NCBI GenBank assembly: GCA_944332435.1
Contig: CALVJW010000002.1
Span: forward strand, 8,353-72,352
DNA from: an uncultured Bacilli bacterium
GTDB taxonomy: Bacteria; Bacillota_I; Bacilli_A; RF39; UBA660
Length of the DNA stretch: 64,000 nucleotides
Direction of reading: 5' to 3'
The notes below the pieces were generated by a model that saw only the letters and a program-made list of their open reading frames with translations, was not told the DNA's origin and did not search any database. Made by a program: the position numbers and the translations under genes. Each line of letters opens with the position of its first letter. Within the stretch, counting starts at the first letter, position 1. This document shows, one piece after another, positions 24,677 through 56,538 of this stretch.

Positions 24677-24689
24677 GATTATAAAAAAA

Positions 24690-25266
24690 ATGAATGGCTA
24701 TCCATATAGTAAACTTTGCGCCTTCAGGTCAAGTAGGTTTTCCCTTATCCTTACTCTCCGTTACCAGAAAAGCGGTTCCCCATTAAAAGGATAAATGTAG
24801 CGTCACCGCATACATGACTTGATTACCACTTAGTACACACTGCAATCCTACATGGAGCTACATTCTAGGAGTTTTCCTCAACAATCCTTTATTATTAATT
24901 CTCTTTTGCAGTAACAATTTCAACTTGCAATAACAAACGAATTGTGGCCACAATCAGTTTGCTTGATCAAATATTCCAAGCTACCACTCAAGACAAGCTA
25001 CACTACTCGTAAGTTACCTCACATAGTAGGTTCAAGCCTAAGTCGTCATAGCTAAAACTATAACAAGATTAGGTCTCCGCGAAAAATTGGGTCGTGATCG
25101 TATGCCATTACGGTCGCCCAATTTCTCTTCCTTTCAGCACCCACCCCAAACTGGGCGTATGAAGCAAGCACCAAAAGTTTCATAGATATGCTCTTTAACG
25201 GATTTTTAGCCCCGTCTTCATAATAAATAAAATTGACTAGAATAATGTGCCATTCATTTATTTATA
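24690..25266 (-). ncRNA. large structured ncRNA, candidate OLE (ornate, large, extremophilic) RNA
   Basis: About 570 nt non-coding island at roughly 45% GC in a 28% GC genome, with many local hairpins. It is bounded by a consensus sigma-A promoter on the minus strand and a T8 run at 24693-24700. No ORF. The next gene encodes an OapA-like membrane protein. Confidence 0.5.
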
Positions 25267-25272
25267 TGAGTA

Positions 25273-51365: not shown

Positions 51366-51758
51366 TTATTTTCTATATCTTTTTACTTTATTTTTTGTCA
51401 AAGTAAGTTTTTCTACTTGTTCTTGTATTTCTGACATAGTTGGACAAATTCCCAATTCTTTGTTCTGTTGATAAAAATTAAATAGTGTAACAAATTCACC
51501 AAGTGAAAATACCTGATTTAATGGATGAACAAATATTGTTTTAGCTTGATCTTCTATTACTTCTTTAATTTCATTCTTTCCATTTTTATTTTTTAAAAAG
51601 ATAATAATATCTCCAGTTTCAATATCACGACATAACATGTAATAAATATTCTCATACATATCATCAGAAATATGATTTAAGTCAACTTCTACACCTTTTT
51701 CCTCATAATCATAAATACCAAGAAAAGCTAGAAATTTAGTTTCTTCTTTTTGTTGCAT
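51366..51758 (-). CDS. hypothetical protein
   Basis: 130 aa, no motif. Confidence 0.3.
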   Translation of the reverse strand: MQQKEETKFLAFLGIYDYEEKGVEVDLNHISDDMYENIYYMLCRDIETGDIIIFLKNKNGKNEIKEVIEDQAKTIFVHPLNQVFSLGEFVTLFNFYQQNKELGICPTMSEIQEQVEKLTLTKNKVKRYRK

Positions 51759-51814
51759 TATATCACCTCACGTATTATTCAATATAGCATTTTTATAATA
51801 AATTGTCTTGTAAA

Positions 51815-52123
51815 TCATGATTTTTTCATATTTTTACATAATTTCTTACAAGATATATCCGTTAAACGATTTTCTTCTTTTTTATAAATATGAAAAATAT
51901 GCTCTGAATTTCTCGCTTGAAATTGATAACTCATTTTATCAAGATTCATAGTAGTGGTAGAGTTTACTAAATAGGTTTCATTCCCTACCCCAATTGCATA
52001 TAATCCTTCTTTTAAATATATAATAGGAATTTTAATTCCACAATCATCGCATATTCCTTTTTTATCAAAAGCAGTTTCTTCTATTACTCTAATATTATGA
52101 TGTTGACAATTATTTTTTTTCAT
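51815..52123 (-). CDS. hypothetical protein (possible Zn-ribbon, CDDCG...CKKLC)
   Basis: 102 aa with two Cys pairs. Confidence 0.3.
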   Translation of the reverse strand: MKKNNCQHHNIRVIEETAFDKKGICDDCGIKIPIIYLKEGLYAIGVGNETYLVNSTTTMNLDKMSYQFQARNSEHIFHIYKKEENRLTDISCKKLCKNMKKS

Positions 52124-52907: not shown

Positions 52908-53120
52908 TAGATAATCCCTCCCTTCTAAAACTATCGATATTATAACACGGATAATAAGGGATTTCAACCAAAAATTACGATATTAAAAATATTTTACATC
53001 GAAAAAGAAAAGGAAAACACAAATTGTCGTAATAAAATTCCAAATTCCAACCCAATTCGATATATAAAATAAAAGAAAATTAGTGAAAAACAAAATAGAA
53101 CTAAATACAACATTGCTTTT

Positions 53121-53285
53121 TTAATAAGGACAAGCATTATGATCCTTTATTCTACGAATTGCACTTCCAAAACTTCGACCAACATCTAAAAAAATATCTA
53201 ATATTCTAACAAAAGAAGATACCATGGTTCCTGTTATATTAATGCCACCTCGTATATTTTGTAATTGTTCTTTGTCTAATTTCAT
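53121..53285 (-). CDS. double-glycine-leader peptide B (54 aa; cationic amphipathic core of 40 aa). Not in the supplied ORF track
   Basis: MKLDKEQLQNIRGG|INITGTMVSSFVRILDIFLDVGRSFGSAIRRIKDHNACPY. The ATG overlaps the TGA stop of peptide A (ATGA). The leader fits the LxxELxxIxGG consensus. Confidence 0.6.
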   Translation of the reverse strand: MKLDKEQLQNIRGGINITGTMVSSFVRILDIFLDVGRSFGSAIRRIKDHNACPY

Positions 53286-53425
53286 TCTCGGCACTGATAT
53301 GGTCTTAAAAAACCATCAATAACACCGATGATAAAAACAATTCCTGCAACAATGATAGAAGCAGCACCAATGGATACCCCTCCTCCATAAATTGTCTTTA
53401 ACTCACAGTTTTCTATCTGTTTCAT
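53282..53425 (-). CDS. double-glycine-leader peptide A (47 aa; hydrophobic GxxxG-rich core of 32 aa). Not in the supplied ORF track
   Basis: MKQIENCELKTIYGG|GVSIGAASIIVAGIVFIIGVIDGFLRPYQCRE. The ATG overlaps the TGA stop of the 142-aa accessory gene. AAAGGA RBS. Confidence 0.6.
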   Translation of the reverse strand: MKQIENCELKTIYGGGVSIGAASIIVAGIVFIIGVIDGFLRPYQCRE

Positions 53426-53850
53426 AAAAACCATCCTTTCATTTTTTTTATTCCCTCTTTCATCATTGTCGTTTTTCCAAGAGAAAAGCGTAAGGATACA
53501 AATTCATTTTCTGTTTGAAATATTTTAGACTTTAATTGTAAAGAAAGTTCGATTTCATTATTTTCTAAAAATCTAGTATGACGTATTTGATAGCGATATT
53601 GCTTTTTCCCAATCCATAATTTTTTCGAATTCACTTGAGAAATAGTAGTAGGACTCATATGAACAACTATAATTACTTCATTTTCTATTTTCTTAGTAAT
53701 ACCAATTAGATGCTCTTGTTTTTGATATGGTATCATAAGAATAACATATATAAATAATAATAAAATAAGTAAAAGAAGCAAATAATAAGTTGCTAATTTT
53801 TCTTCTTTTTGATAGAAATAAAATTCGTATTTTTCTTCTAGCTGAAACAT
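53422..53850 (-). CDS. small single-TM accessory (or immunity?) protein of the peptide export locus
   Basis: 142 aa with one TM helix (YYLLLLLILLLFIYVILMI). Overlaps the PCAT gene's 3' end and peptide A's start. Confidence 0.4.
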   Translation of the reverse strand: MFQLEEKYEFYFYQKEEKLATYYLLLLLILLLFIYVILMIPYQKQEHLIGITKKIENEVIIVVHMSPTTISQVNSKKLWIGKKQYRYQIRHTRFLENNEIELSLQLKSKIFQTENEFVSLRFSLGKTTMMKEGIKKMKGWFL

Positions 53851-55898
53851 ATCTCTTTTAATACTCCATCTTTTAATTCTAAAATACGATTATATAAATA
53901 ATGATTTTCCATACGATTGCGATGAGAAATTACGATTACTGTTTTATTTGGATACTTCCAAAATAACAATCGTAGCATTTGATATTCTGACTGCTCATCT
54001 AATTGATTCGTTGCTTCATCTAATAATAAAATTTGATAAGAGTTTAATAAAGCTCTAGCTAATATAATTCGTTGTCTTTCACCACCAGAAAAATGATTAC
54101 TATTATCATCCAACATTGTATGCATTCCCAACTGGTATTTTTTTAAAATTGAATTGATATCACAAAGTTTTAATACCTCTGAAAAAGTTTGTGGGGAAAT
54201 CACTCGATTCATTAAAATATTTTGATAAAGTGTACCAGAAAATAACACTCCTTTCTGTGGTACATAGGTAATGGCTCGTTTCAAATCTTCTTTTCTTATG
54301 TCACAAATATCTACACCATCAAAATAAATCATATCTCTCTTAACTTTTTCATACTTCATTAACAATTTTAATAATGTTGATTTCCCACTACCGCTTACTC
54401 CTAATAATAAAATTTTTTCTCCTTTCCGAATTGATAAAGAAATACCATTTAGTAAGTTTTGGTCTTCTTGGTAAGAAAAAATCAATTGATGAAATGTAAT
54501 ATTTCCTTGGATCATATAAGGTAATAAAGAATTCTCCTCTTCTTCGAGTAATAAATAAGAAATTCGATCATAAGCATTCTTGGCTTCACCATAATAAATA
54601 TATAACATATGAAACTTTGAAATTGCCGCGACTAAATAACCACTTAATAATTCAAATAATAATAAATTGCCTATGGATAATCTATCTTCCATAATCAAAA
54701 TACCACCAATTAATAATTGTAATAAAACAACAATATCACAAACAGAAGATTGTAATAATTGATACTTCGCAGTAAATATTTGATAACTTCTATCTTTTTT
54801 AAAATAAGAAAATAAATTTTCTAAATACATAGAATGTATCTTTTTTTCTATATGAATTCCTTGAATCGTATTAAGTCCTAATAATAAATCAGATAAAACA
54901 GTAGTAACACTGGCTTTTTTCACTTTTACTTTATAATTTTTGTTTTGATAGTTTTGATAAGTAAAACGAAATAATAACAAATAAAATACTAGCAACATCA
55001 TTTCAATTTGAAATAACTGAATATTTAATCGATATAGTAGAATAAGAGAAAGAATAAACATAACAAGATCAAAAGAAAAAAATTGATAACAAATTCCTAA
55101 AAAATTTTGAATGATTGGTAAATCTTCTATTCTAGAAAGTAATTCACCAACCGTTCGATGTTGATAATATTGTTGAGGTTGAGAAAGAAGACGTTTTAAG
55201 ACATTGGATGTTAAAAACAATTGTAGTTTATGATTAAAATTTAAATATAATCTTGTTTTGACATACGTTGTGACATGAAGTAACAAATAAATACAAGCAC
55301 CCGAAAAAAATAATACGTAAAAATATTGATACTCCATACGAAATTCTACTGCATCAAACATCCATTTTGTAAAAAAACTCGTGCAAAAAGAATAGAAACC
55401 AATCATGATAGAAAAACAACATAAACGGATTGATTCTTTTTTAAAGCGTTGAACAATAAAATACAAAAATGTGAAAAAAGACGTATTTACATCTAATCGT
55501 TCAATTGGATGGATAGGGTAAAATAAAATCGCTATATTAGTCCACTTCTTTTGAAATTCTCGAAATGATATTGTTTGAACTCCAAAAGCAGGATCAGCAA
55601 TTGTTAATGTTTCACGCAATGAATTGATTTGATAAACAACGACATAATGATAACTTTCAACTTTTAAATGAGCAATAAAAGGAACCTGTAATCTTTTTTT
55701 CTCATTTAGTGTAGTTTTTATCCCCCAAGCATGAAAACCAAACTGTTTCGCTGCTTCTATTAAATCATATGCACTCGTCCCTTTATTTGTCGTATGTGTT
55801 AATTGCCGAATCCTTTCCATATTAGCATAGCCACCATAATATTTTAAAATCATTGAAAGACAAGCAACTCCACAGTCTGTTTCATCTTGCTGTTTCAC
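53838..55898 (-). CDS. peptidase-C39-containing ABC transporter (bacteriocin/peptide processing and export; ComA/LagD/SunT family)
   Basis: N-terminal C39 domain (QDETDCGVACLSM catalytic Cys, HYVVVYQI His), six-TM domain, then an NBD with Walker A GVSGSGKST, signature FSGGERQR, Walker B ILLLDEAT. Apparent GTG start with no SD. Confidence 0.85.
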   Translation of the reverse strand: MKQQDETDCGVACLSMILKYYGGYANMERIRQLTHTTNKGTSAYDLIEAAKQFGFHAWGIKTTLNEKKRLQVPFIAHLKVESYHYVVVYQINSLRETLTIADPAFGVQTISFREFQKKWTNIAILFYPIHPIERLDVNTSFFTFLYFIVQRFKKESIRLCCFSIMIGFYSFCTSFFTKWMFDAVEFRMEYQYFYVLFFSGACIYLLLHVTTYVKTRLYLNFNHKLQLFLTSNVLKRLLSQPQQYYQHRTVGELLSRIEDLPIIQNFLGICYQFFSFDLVMFILSLILLYRLNIQLFQIEMMLLVFYLLLFRFTYQNYQNKNYKVKVKKASVTTVLSDLLLGLNTIQGIHIEKKIHSMYLENLFSYFKKDRSYQIFTAKYQLLQSSVCDIVVLLQLLIGGILIMEDRLSIGNLLLFELLSGYLVAAISKFHMLYIYYGEAKNAYDRISYLLLEEEENSLLPYMIQGNITFHQLIFSYQEDQNLLNGISLSIRKGEKILLLGVSGSGKSTLLKLLMKYEKVKRDMIYFDGVDICDIRKEDLKRAITYVPQKGVLFSGTLYQNILMNRVISPQTFSEVLKLCDINSILKKYQLGMHTMLDDNSNHFSGGERQRIILARALLNSYQILLLDEATNQLDEQSEYQMLRLLFWKYPNKTVIVISHRNRMENHYLYNRILELKDGVLKEICFS

Positions 55899-55950
55899 AA
55901 ATGGATATTTTTTAAAAACCGTACTTCTTCACCCCCTCATTTATATCATT

Positions 55951-55985
55951 CGATAAAACTTTTAAAAATCCTTCAAAAAAAAGAA
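55951..55985 (-). terminator. rho-independent terminator of rsmD
   Basis: AGAAATAAG-gaaac-CTTATTTCT hairpin followed by a T8 run on the minus strand. Confidence 0.6.
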
Positions 55986-55995
55986 ATAAGTTTCC

Positions 55996-56538
55996 TTATT
56001 TCTTCTGATACACCTTTACATACTTATTACCATATTTTTTTTCTTTTATACAAGCAAGAATTTCTGATGCTATTTCTTCTTCATCAAACTCACATACTAC
56101 AATCGCATCATCTTTTAACAAATTATAATTTACTAATATTTCTAATATGTTATTGATAAAATGTTTTTTATAAGGTGGATCTAATAATACAAGATTAAAT
56201 TGAATATGTTGATGTTTCAATTCTTGTAATGCTTTATGATAATCCATATGCATTAAGTGATACGTTTCTGTAGCATGAAGTTTCTTTAAATTATTTTGAA
56301 TTGTTGTAATCGCAATCTTATTATAATCTACAAAATAAACTTCTTTACTTCCATTACTCATTGTTTCAATTCCTAAATTGCCACTACCGGCAAATAAATC
56401 TAATGCAATTGCATCTTTTACATAAGACTGAATCATTGCAAACATCGATTCTTTTACTCGATCCATTGTCGGTCTTGTCCCATCAATATCATGCCCATCT
56501 AATTTTATTCCTCGATATTTTCCACTAATTACTCGCAA
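55996..56538 (-). CDS. rsmD: 16S rRNA (guanine966-N2)-methyltransferase
   Basis: MRVISGKYRGIKL...TRPTMDRVKESMF...LDLFAGSGNLGIE...LDPPY motifs. Probable TTG start after a GGGAGG RBS. Confidence 0.8.
   Translation of the reverse strand: MRVISGKYRGIKLDGHDIDGTRPTMDRVKESMFAMIQSYVKDAIALDLFAGSGNLGIETMSNGSKEVYFVDYNKIAITTIQNNLKKLHATETYHLMHMDYHKALQELKHQHIQFNLVLLDPPYKKHFINNILEILVNYNLLKDDAIVVCEFDEEEIASEILACIKEKKYGNKYVKVYQKK

What the first reader, a model, noticed from the sequence alone, without database searches (positions are those of the whole stretch)
53121..55898. Unannotated pair of overlapping GG-leader peptide genes coupled to a C39-ABC exporter: a compact two-peptide bacteriocin-like locus
Two small minus-strand ORFs sit downstream of the PCAT gene (53838-55898) and a 142-aa single-TM gene. 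Both were below the ORF-track size cutoff. Peptide A (53425-53282, 47 aa) and peptide B (53285-53121, 54 aa) each begin with a textbook double-glycine leader: MKQIENCELKTIYGG and MKLDKEQLQNIRGG. All four genes are chained by overlaps: PCAT and the 142-aa gene share 13 nt, and two ATGA stop/start overlaps follow. This points to one tightly coupled transcript. The A core (GVSIGAASIIVAGIVFIIGVIDGFLRPYQCRE) is hydrophobic with GxxxG motifs. The B core is a cationic amphipathic 40-mer ending in ...NACPY. This composition is what class IIb two-peptide bacteriocins look like. No histidine kinase or response regulator is nearby, which argues against a pheromone circuit. No obvious immunity gene is present either, unless the 142-aa protein serves.
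Basis: partly seen in the sequence, partly recalled or inferred. Interest (0 to 1): 0.8.

Follow-up and report, generated by a model that had tools for sequence, protein, structure and literature searches.

The report
Conserved two-peptide exporter operon, bacteriocin-like
The two small genes are real and form, with a cleaving ABC exporter, a helper protein and a previously unseen fifth small gene, a two-peptide bacteriocin-like operon that has been inherited at the same chromosomal spot in about a hundred uncultured anaerobic gut and digester bacteria, which is unusual for a bacteriocin.

Summary
On the minus strand, a peptidase-containing ABC exporter (PCAT), a 142-aa gene, peptide A (47 aa) and peptide B (54 aa) are chained by 13-nt and two ATGA overlaps. 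Both peptides have textbook double-glycine leaders.

New findings:
- A fifth overlapping ORF, "C" (52994-53137, 47 aa), has one membrane-spanning segment. Its C-terminal half is a paralogue of mature B. It is the better immunity candidate.
- The 142-aa protein folds like the beta-barrel of membrane-fusion (HlyD/MFP-type) adaptors, so it is probably the transport accessory.
- The PCAT-A-B core occurs in 60 species-level MAGs and 52 metagenome contigs, mostly between rsmD and rpsU. dN/dS is 0.05-0.23, and the peptides are more conserved than their own transporter.
- Each core has an invariant GxxxG and one Cys at a fixed distance from it. The single pair lacking Cys lacks it in both peptides.
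- The cores match no Pfam, NCBIfam or PDB family.

Best reading: a class IIb-type two-peptide membrane-active bacteriocin, possibly a disulfide-linked heterodimer, with a B-mimic immunity protein.

Caveat: vertical inheritance, slow peptide evolution and 12 species with no linked immunity gene fit a non-antagonistic conserved function almost as well.

Verdict: new variant of a known kind, moderate interest.

The parts
55975..56006 (-). Intrinsic terminator of the upstream rsmD gene (12-bp stem followed by a U run). It marks the 5' boundary of the operon.
   Evidence: minimum free energy -11.5 kcal/mol, z-score -3.2. The element is conserved in relatives.
55931..55948 (-). Conserved intergenic element: an extended -10-like TGaTATAAA followed by a GAGGGGG ribosome-binding site. 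Candidate promoter and translation start region of the operon (inferred).
   Evidence: a nearly invariant block in five relatives that have diverged to dS of about 1. The simple promoter scan did not list it.
53838..55898 (-). Peptidase-containing ABC transporter (PCAT): C39 protease domain, six-helix membrane domain and ATPase domain. The true start probably lies upstream, near 55922, at a non-canonical codon.
   Evidence: Pfam Peptidase_C39 8.8e-37, ABC_membrane, ABC_tran. PCAT1 (4ry2) at E 7e-81 over the full length, with catalytic Cys, His and Asp aligned; the GTG at 55898 is not conserved.
53422..53850 (-). 142-aa accessory protein: an N-terminal membrane helix plus a beta-barrel domain like that of membrane-fusion (HlyD/MFP-type) adaptors. 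It overlaps the PCAT gene by 13 nt.
53282..53425 (-). Peptide A precursor (47 aa). Leader 53425-53381, ending in GG. 32-aa hydrophobic core 53380-53285, carrying GVIDG and one Cys.
53121..53285 (-). Peptide B precursor (54 aa). Leader 53285-53244, ending in GG. 40-aa amphipathic cationic core 53243-53124, carrying GRSFG and one Cys.
52994..53137 (-). ORF C (47 aa), overlapping the 3' end of the B gene by 17 nt. It has a basic N-terminus, one membrane helix and a B-like C-terminal segment (RIGLEFGILLRQF), and no GG leader. Candidate immunity protein.
   Evidence: hhalign against mature B gives probability 95.8%, E 7e-9; dN/dS 0.3-0.5; present in 41 of 58 species-level loci.
52939..52967 (-). 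Promoter-like site of the downstream rpsU gene (TTGAAA, 17-nt spacer, TATAAT, with TG). It marks the 3' boundary. No terminator is predicted between B/C and rpsU.

Best explanation
The locus is a self-contained five-gene operon for a class IIb-type two-peptide bacteriocin.

Proposed mechanism:
1. Precursors A and B are recognised through their double-glycine leaders by the C39 domain of the PCAT. They are cut after GG and pumped out. The 142-aa membrane-anchored mini membrane-fusion-like protein assists.
2. Mature A is a 32-aa membrane-spanning helix. Mature B is a 40-aa amphipathic cationic helix.
3. A and B pair side by side in a target membrane through their invariant GxxxG motifs (GVIDG in A, GRSxG in B). 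The pair is probably locked by a disulfide between their single C-terminal cysteines.
4. The pair then permeabilises or jams a membrane component of related bacteria.
5. ORF C protects the producer. It is a non-exported, membrane-anchored copy of B's pairing segment. It could act by occupying B's place beside A, in a decoy or antiholin-like manner.

Shown: the gene set, the domains, the catalytic residues, the conservation and the motif geometry.

Inferred: cleavage, export, pairing, the disulfide, killing and immunity.
For: Transporter and accessory:
- The PCAT has all three domains and the catalytic triad aligned to PCAT1 and ComA.
- The accessory protein has a membrane-fusion-like fold.

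Peptides:
- Both peptides have consensus GG leaders. GG is present in 59/60 A and 60/61 B sequences. The one exception uses AG in both peptides.
- Strong purifying selection acts on A and B.
- A is found directly upstream of B in 44 of 45 loci that were found through B alone.
- GxxxG is present in both cores. Gly36 and Gly40 are invariant in B. The motif is present in 41 of 42 A sequences from the B-ascertained set.
- The Cys sits exactly 7 residues after the motif in A in 99 of 101 pairs, and 12 residues after it in B in 100 of 101 pairs. The only pair without Cys lacks it in both peptides.

ORF C:
- It overlaps the end of B in 45 of 62 loci. It is homologous to B's C-terminal 25 residues and not to A.

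Literature:
- GG leaders, adjacent genes, an immunity gene in the same operon, an accessory protein and GxxxG motifs are the stated hallmarks of class IIb (PMC2850506).
- Single-membrane-span immunity proteins of 42-55 aa directly downstream of the peptide genes are documented (CbnZ, BrcI, EnkIaz, AbpIM; PMC6957408).
Against: - No activity data exist.
- The locus behaves unlike typical bacteriocin islands. At least one flank (rsmD or rpsU) is conserved in 47 of 57 species. Its GC content equals that of the flanks.
- The peptides are about as conserved as housekeeping proteins and more so than their exporter. Median identity to the window is 62% for mature A and 46% for mature B, against 34% for the PCAT and 26% for the accessory.
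- 12 of 52 scorable species-level loci carry only PCAT-A-B. In five of them that I read off (L042, L045, L046, L068, L077) rpsU starts 51-92 nt after B, which leaves no room for a linked immunity gene.
- The window's own ORF C lacks the C-terminal Cys.
- The cores have no sequence similarity to any characterised bacteriocin.
- The producers are anaerobes, where disulfide formation outside the cell is less assured.
Confidence: 0.55

Rival explanations
1. The operon makes a conserved, non-antagonistic exported peptide pair. A and B, with membrane-anchored C, would serve the producer itself or its kin. Possible roles are a small membrane complex, an envelope or sporulation-related factor, or a host- or community-directed effector. 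In this reading the PCAT is simply their dedicated maturation and export route.
For: - The locus is vertically inherited and syntenic, sitting between rsmD and rpsU-yqeY, in most of 57 species.
- Its base composition is native.
- The peptides are more conserved than the transporter.
- dN/dS is as low as for the PCAT or lower.
- The Cys spacing has no insertions or deletions across 101 pairs.
- 12 species have no linked immunity or accessory gene.
- The locus is retained in small genomes. L062 is a 1.49-Mb chromosome.
Against: - No receptor, sensor or partner gene is linked.
- The architecture, leaders, GxxxG motifs and small downstream membrane protein are exactly those of class IIb bacteriocin operons.
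- A B-like membrane decoy is most simply explained as self-protection against a toxic pair.
Confidence: 0.3
2. The peptides are quorum-sensing or competence-type pheromones, like ComC or BlpC, processed by the PCAT.
For: - GG-leader peptides exported by PCATs include pheromones. ComA is the second-best structural homologue by sequence.
- The locus is conserved, as signalling systems often are.
Against: - No histidine kinase, response regulator or Rgg-type receptor appears in the window flanks or in any of the inspected relatives.
- The A core is a 23-residue membrane helix with GRAVY 1.24, unlike soluble pheromones.
- Two obligatorily paired peptides plus a B-like membrane protein do not fit a ligand.
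Confidence: 0.05
3. The small ORFs are chance ORFs in AT-rich DNA, and only the PCAT and the 142-aa gene are real.
For: - The window has about 27% GC, where short ORFs are common.
- ORF C is never called by gene predictors.
Against: - A and B are retained at constant length. dN/dS is 0.05-0.23 at dS up to 1.8.
- They are recovered in over 100 loci by two independent searches.
- C is retained in 41 of 58 species with a conserved motif.
Confidence: 0.01

Closest known systems
Class IIb two-peptide bacteriocin operons (lactococcin G, plantaricin EF/JK, carnobacteriocin XY, brochocin C)
   Same: - Two adjacent genes with 14-15-residue double-glycine leaders.
- A dedicated C39-ABC exporter and an accessory protein in the same operon, as for lactococcin G.
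- Cores of 32 and 40 residues, one hydrophobic and one cationic and amphipathic.
- A GxxxG motif in both cores.
- A small membrane protein gene directly downstream (PMC2850506; PMC6957408).
   Different: - No sequence similarity of the cores to any Pfam, NCBIfam or PDB entry.
- One conserved Cys per peptide at a fixed distance from GxxxG, which suggests a covalent heterodimer. No precedent was seen in the searched literature.
- The immunity candidate is a paralogue of peptide B.
- The locus is chromosomal, syntenic and slowly evolving across more than 100 lineages rather than strain-variable.
- There is no linked regulatory system.
Short single-membrane-span class IIb immunity proteins (CbnZ 42 aa, BrcI 53 aa, EnkIaz 52 aa, AbpIM 55 aa)
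   Same: - Similar size (47-58 aa).
- One membrane helix.
- Position immediately after the two peptide genes (PMC6957408).
   Different: - ORF C shares its C-terminal 25 residues with peptide B (hhalign probability 95.8%). I know of no report of such mimicry for those proteins.
- C is absent from 17 of 58 species-level loci.
- Its function is untested.
PCAT1 of Clostridium thermocellum (PDB 4ry2) and ComA of Streptococcus (PDB 8hf4)
   Same: Full-length alignment (E 7e-81 and about 1e-73) with the same three-domain order, the catalytic Cys, His and Asp, and the Walker, signature and H-loop motifs.
   Different: - Scores fall below the NCBIfam cut-off for TIGR01193 (344 against 524 bits).
- Identity to the nearest PCATs outside this clade is only about 30%.
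- The start codon is apparently non-canonical.
NCBIfam NF045999 'MAG1140 family protein' and NF045998 'Mbov_0121 family peptidase domain-containing ABC transporter' (Mycoplasmopsis)
   Same: - NF045999 is the only curated family that the 142-aa protein touches. The match is full-length (residues 14-131 against profile 4-122 of 126, E 1e-5). 7 of 18 family members hit it.
- The PCAT matches NF045998 over its full length.
   Different: - Both matches are below the curated cut-offs (25.5 against 35 bits; 279 against 500 bits).
- I could not fetch a Mycoplasmopsis locus, so I could not see whether those two genes are adjacent or whether A/B-like peptides accompany them (one search found none).
HlyD/membrane-fusion-protein accessories of peptide exporters (LcnD, ComB type) and MFP adaptors (MexA, MacA, EmrA, AcrA)
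   Different: - Only 142 aa, with no alpha-hairpin or lipoyl domain.
- No Pfam HlyD hit.

Membership tests
Class IIb (two-peptide) bacteriocins | Two different peptide genes lie next to each other in one operon. | tested here: met
   A and B share an ATGA overlap. The adjacency holds in 44 of 45 loci found through B alone.
Class IIb (two-peptide) bacteriocins | [quoted passage not shown] | tested here: met
   The leaders are 15 and 14 residues and end in GG, with hydrophobic residues at -4, -7 and -12. GG is present in 59/60 A and 60/61 B sequences. Peptide A passes the TIGR01847 cut-off.
Class IIb (two-peptide) bacteriocins | A dedicated ABC transporter with an active C39 leader peptidase. 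| tested here: met
   Pfam Peptidase_C39 at 8.8e-37. The catalytic Cys, His and Asp align with PCAT1. Actual cleavage was not tested.
Class IIb (two-peptide) bacteriocins | GxxxG (or AxxxA/SxxxS) helix-packing motifs in both mature peptides. | tested here: met
   A has G-[VLIF]-[ILVF]-D-G in 99 of 101 pairs. B has G-[RKQ]-x-x-G in 100 of 101 pairs.
Class IIb (two-peptide) bacteriocins | An immunity gene in the same operon. | tested here: inconclusive
   ORF C is in the right place, has the right size and has one membrane helix. It is absent from 17 of 58 species-level loci, and its function is untested.
Class IIb (two-peptide) bacteriocins | [quoted passage not shown] | not testable with these tools
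   This needs synthetic or expressed peptides and indicator strains.
Peptidase-containing ABC transporters (NCBIfam TIGR01193, bacteriocin_ABC) | The whole-protein score reaches the curated cut-off. | tested here: not met
   344 bits against a cut-off of 523.85. The domain order and catalytic residues are nonetheless met, so the protein works like a PCAT but is a divergent member.
NCBIfam NF045999 MAG1140 family | The whole-protein score reaches the curated cut-off of 35 bits. | tested here: not met
   25.5 bits, E 1.1e-5, full-length alignment. 7 of 18 relatives hit at E<0.01. This is distant homology at most.
HlyD / membrane-fusion protein family | A membrane anchor plus beta-barrel, lipoyl and alpha-hairpin domains, with a Pfam HlyD signature. 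| tested here: not met
Pfam PF10439 Bacteriocin_IIc; NCBIfam TIGR03949 (lactobin A/cerein 7B); NCBIfam NF038034 (lactococcin G-beta) | The score reaches the curated cut-off. | tested here: not met
   Peptide A scores 15.6 against 27.1, 14.3 against 21.5 and 17.2 against 37 bits. Peptide B scores lower. With the leaders removed, none of 85 core pairs hits any of these families.

The most novel reading that the evidence does not exclude
The A/B pair would be a previously undescribed kind of covalent, disulfide-linked heterodimeric membrane peptide, and its producer would be protected by a membrane-tethered decoy copy of one subunit (ORF C). This is an antiholin-like logic applied to a bacteriocin.

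Alternatively, and more radically, the operon would not be a weapon at all. It would be an anciently fixed, lineage-wide exported membrane-peptide system with a housekeeping-like role in small-genome anaerobic Bacilli, related at a distance to the unexplained PCAT/MAG1140 genes of Mycoplasmopsis.
Probability: 0.3. Interest if true: 0.75.

Novelty: new variant of a known kind. Interest (0 to 1): 0.55.

Why it matters
- It defines an unnamed peptide family with clear, testable sequence rules: a GG leader, a GxxDG or GRSxG motif, and a Cys at +7 in A or +12 in B. The family is spread through about a hundred uncultured gut and anaerobic-digester Bacilli, none of which has been cultured.
- The peptides are only 32 and 40 residues long and unmodified, so they can be synthesised and tested without growing the organisms.
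- If they kill, they are a conserved narrow-spectrum weapon, with a possible new immunity principle in which a tethered mimic of one subunit protects the producer.
- If they do not kill, the locus is a counter-example to the habit of calling every PCAT plus GG-peptide cluster a bacteriocin. It may also explain why reduced genomes, perhaps including mycoplasmas, keep such exporters.

Tried and rejected
- **Chance ORFs.** Rejected on conservation and dN/dS.
- **The 142-aa protein as immunity.** Judged unlikely, because the fold search returns membrane-fusion adaptors. However, its presence correlates with that of ORF C (32/3/5/12, Fisher 9e-6; confounded by phylogeny), so a role in immunity is not excluded.
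- **Pheromone circuit.** No sensor gene appears in any inspected locus.
- **Horizontal island.** Rejected. The GC content equals that of the flanks, the flanks are conserved and no mobile-element genes are present.
- **Similarity of the cores to known bacteriocins.** Pfam and NCBIfam on the precursors gave only sub-threshold matches that mostly cover the leader. The same libraries on 85 leaderless core pairs gave nothing except artefacts of the linker. PDB profile searches gave nothing.
- **Literature.**
  - The motifs IGVIDG, GVIDGY and LGRSLGT occur in no held paper.
  - The supplements of the IIBacFinder paper are not held.
  - No paper in the top results linked two-peptide bacteriocins with an interchain disulfide.
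- **Structure of the A-B pair.** I built 85 paired A-linker-B sequences (A8) for AlphaFold.
- **Mycoplasma link.** A profile search with the accessory family returned only loci of this same clade. I could not inspect a Mycoplasmopsis locus.
- **Metagenome scan.** The first attempt, with a 55-sequence alignment, failed for lack of a conserved stretch. It was repeated with 15 sequences.
- **Naming the clade.** The Pelethosoma text was not within the held part of the paper.
Full report
**1. Observation**

- A 686-aa ORF at 55898-53838.
- A 142-aa ORF at 53850-53422, sharing 13 nt with the first.
- Peptide A at 53425-53282 (47 aa).
- Peptide B at 53285-53121 (54 aa).

The last two junctions are ATGA stop/start overlaps.

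Pfam finds Peptidase_C39 (8.8e-37), ABC_membrane and ABC_tran in the large protein. Its best solved relative is PCAT1 of Clostridium thermocellum (4ry2, E 7e-81, full length), followed by ComA. The catalytic Cys (QQDETDC), the His (HYVVVY) and the Asp (IADP) are aligned. The Walker A, signature, Walker B and H-loop motifs are also aligned.

Both leaders follow the double-glycine consensus. Peptide A just reaches NCBIfam's leader-domain cut-off (TIGR01847, 15.9 against 15.7 bits).

The A core is membrane-helix-like. The B core is amphipathic (hydrophobic moment 0.74; 3 of 1000 shuffles reach it) with net charge +2.

**2.

A fifth ORF, here called C, runs from 53137 to 52994 (47 aa, MLVLIKKAMLYLVLFCFSLIFFYFIYRIGLEFGILLRQFVFSFSFSM). 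It starts inside the last codons of B, with a 17-nt overlap.

The operon is bounded upstream by the rsmD terminator at 55975-56006. It is bounded downstream by a strong promoter-like site for rpsU at 52967-52939. No terminator is predicted between them.

The GC content of the locus (26-28%) equals that of the flanks.

**3. Relatives**

Close relatives were found through the 142-aa protein and the PCAT. They carry the same genes in the same place: ylbD-ylbE-rsmD | PCAT-acc-A-B | rpsU-yqeY. In those contigs A and B are called as genes.

The exact window peptides exist as unnamed predicted proteins in NCBI, ENA and Logan. C is not in the collection.

dN/dS against relatives with dS of 0.3-1.8:

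| Gene | dN/dS |
|---|---|
| A | 0.05-0.18 |
| B | 0.06-0.23 |
| PCAT | 0.14 |
| Accessory | 0.28-0.29 |
| C | 0.3-0.5 |

The small ORFs are therefore genes.

A scan of one genome per GTDB species with an alignment of A found 60 loci. All are MAGs labelled uncultured Bacilli, Bacillota, Tenericutes or Mollicutes, or Candidatus Pelethosoma (Mycoplasmatota incertae sedis). One is a 1.49-Mb chromosome. Profile searches of their ORFs show PCAT-(acc)-A-B in essentially all of them.
- rsmD is adjacent upstream in 25 of 50 scorable loci and farther upstream in 4 more.
- rpsU lies within 900 nt downstream in 34 of 53 scorable loci and farther in 5 more.
- At least one of these flanks is kept in 47 of 57 loci.

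The search with A fixes A's central motif by construction. I therefore repeated the search in JGI metagenomes with B's motif only, which gave 52 loci.
- 44 of 45 with enough upstream sequence have an A gene directly upstream.
- 41 of 42 distinct A sequences keep G-x3-G...(R/N)P...C.
- Every A and every B keeps the Cys.

Median identity to the window proteins across the 60 genomes:

| Protein | Median identity |
|---|---|
| RsmD | 50% |
| YlbE | 55% |
| YqeY | 62% |
| PCAT | 34% |
| Accessory | 26% |
| Mature A | 62% (upward-biased by the search) |
| Mature B | 46% (unbiased) |

The cargo peptides are thus about as conserved as housekeeping proteins and clearly more conserved than their exporter.

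**4. Anatomy of the peptides**

These figures come from 101 distinct A/B pairs.
- The leader ends in GG in all but one locus. That locus uses AG in both peptides.
- A has its Cys exactly 7 residues after the second Gly of G-x-x-D-G in 99 pairs.
- B has its Cys exactly 12 residues after the second Gly of G-(R/K/Q)-x-x-G in 100 pairs.
- Most cores contain exactly one Cys (53 of 60 A and 57 of 61 B).
- One intact pair lacks the Cys (L046). It lacks it in both peptides and also has no ORF C.
- L076 is a second case of a missing Cys in A. There the gene is truncated by an insertion.

A single unpaired Cys in each of two exported partner peptides, held at a fixed distance from the helix-packing motif and lost together, is what an interchain disulfide would predict. 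This is one co-loss event and an inference, not a demonstration.

**5. ORF C**

An ORF of 40-65 aa that overlaps the end of B, most often by 13 nt, is present in 45 of 62 loci. With a family profile it is found in 41 of 58 species-level loci.

It has a Lys-rich N-terminus and one hydrophobic helix. Its tail has the form ...G-x-x-x-G-(T/S)-x-(I/L)-R-...-C.

Profile-profile comparison aligns its last 25 residues with the last 25 of mature B (probability 95.8%, E 7e-9). The same test against A gives 0.2%.

C is therefore a paralogue of B. The GG leader and the amphipathic N-terminal half of B are replaced by a membrane anchor.

By the positive-inside rule, the B-like tail would face outward, where exported A and B arrive. 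This point is inferred.

Short single-span immunity proteins encoded directly after the peptide genes are documented for class IIb: CbnZ (42 aa), BrcI (53 aa), EnkIaz (52 aa) and AbpIM (55 aa) (PMC6957408).

**6. The 142-aa protein**

It belongs to a very small family: 19 cluster representatives among 1.8 billion proteins. The two members I looked up sit in this same operon.

The only curated family it touches is NCBIfam NF045999, the 'MAG1140 family' of Mycoplasmopsis. The match is below the cut-off.

I read it as a minimal transport accessory, not as the immunity protein. Its presence does correlate with that of C (32 both, 12 neither, 5 and 3 mixed). The classic review leaves open that accessory proteins contribute to immunity (PMC2850506).

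**7. Mechanism proposed, and how far it is shown**

Shown:
- the gene set
- the domains
- the catalytic residues
- translational coupling by overlaps
- purifying selection
- the motif geometry
- the paralogy of B and C

Inferred from the established behaviour of PCATs and class IIb peptides (PMC2850506):
- cleavage after GG and export
- side-by-side helix pairing through GxxxG
- membrane permeabilisation of related cells

Inferred from the patterns found here:
- an A-B disulfide
- protection by C acting as a tethered mimic of B

**8. Why I do not simply file it as a bacteriocin**

Four observations fit a weapon poorly.
- The chromosomal position is fixed across deep divergence.
- The base composition is native.
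- The peptides evolve more slowly than their exporter.
- 12 of 52 scorable species-level loci have only PCAT-A-B. In five of them that I read off (L042, L045, L046, L068, L077) rpsU starts 51-92 nt after B, so no linked immunity gene can exist there.

A conserved, non-antagonistic role for the exported pair is a real rival (about 0.3). A pheromone role is unlikely: no sensor gene appears in any locus, and A is a membrane helix.

**9. Comparison with what is known**

The locus meets the sequence-level hallmarks of class IIb: adjacent genes, GG leaders, a dedicated C39-ABC exporter, an accessory protein, GxxxG in both peptides and a small membrane protein downstream.

The cores match nothing.
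- With their leaders, A and B give only sub-threshold hits to Bacteriocin_IIc, the lactobin A/cerein 7B family and the lactococcin G-beta family. These hits mostly cover the leader.
- Without leaders, none of 85 core pairs hits any Pfam or NCBIfam family.
- PDB profile searches are empty.
- The motifs occur in no held paper.

The PCAT is divergent. Identity drops to about 30% outside the clade, and it scores below the curated NCBIfam cut-offs.

**10. Verdict**

It needs three corrections:
- a fifth gene exists
- the 142-aa protein has a different role
- the evolutionary behaviour is strikingly conservative

It is a new variant of a known kind. It consists of a new peptide family with a probable covalent heterodimer, a possible mimicry-based immunity protein and a mini membrane-fusion-like accessory.

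Interest is moderate (0.55). The system is easy to test with synthetic peptides. It is informative either way about how far 'PCAT plus GG peptides' can be equated with 'bacteriocin'.

Noticed in passing
window 24678-25269 (-): A full-length OLE (ornate large extremophilic) RNA, 435.6 bits, E 1e-124. It is the only Rfam match in the window that reaches a gathering score.
   Followed up: no
window 55898-55937 (-); L001, L005, L013, L014 equivalents: The GTG taken as the PCAT start is not conserved. It is GTA or GTC in three of four relatives. The upstream in-frame codons encode a conserved KKYPF stretch, typical of C39 N-termini. A conserved GAGGGGG ribosome-binding site sits 8 codons upstream. 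The codon at the expected start is ATG in one relative and ACG in the window and three others, followed by ATT in two of them. Public gene calls vary (671, 686 and 694 aa), and the 671-aa calls cut off the catalytic Cys. This suggests non-canonical initiation.
   Followed up: partly
L076 6001-6700: In one MAG the A gene is cut right after the GVIDG codons by unrelated inserted DNA, and no B gene follows. This is a decayed copy of the locus.
   Followed up: partly
L092 4289-4657 (also L091, L093, L096): In one metagenomic lineage a 122-aa ORF follows ORF C. It matches only the C-terminal part of the ABC ATPase domain (PCAT residues 580-663, E 1e-7). It is a fragment or a remnant of a second transporter.
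   Followed up: partly
L089 3880-4032; L014 6149-6676: L089 has a second C-like ORF about 2.5 kb downstream of the first. L014 has an extra 175-aa gene of unknown function between ORF C and rpsU.
   Followed up: no
L022, L025, L034, L035, L037, L039, L040, L051, L056, L071, L074 (record titles) and L066: Several MAG records titled 'uncultured Muribaculaceae' and one titled 'Ignavibacteriales' carry this Bacilli-type locus. In several of them (L034, L035, L066, L074) the full ylbD-ylbE-rsmD context is present, and L025 and L039 have rsmD. The taxon labels or the binning of those records look wrong.
   Followed up: no
L047 5998-6323: This locus uses Ala-Gly instead of Gly-Gly at the end of both leaders (…KAGAG and …RAGAG). 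The change is matched in the two substrates of one protease.
   Followed up: no
L061 and L068 (A and B genes): The two loci in which B has GQxxG instead of GRxxG are among the four in which A has NP instead of RP after its GxxDG motif. This could be a correlated change or shared ancestry.
   Followed up: no
window 51366-52123 (-): Two conserved hypothetical genes (130 aa and 102 aa, the latter Cys-rich) lie between rpsB and yqeY. Both are syntenic in relatives and have no Pfam hit on record.
   Followed up: no
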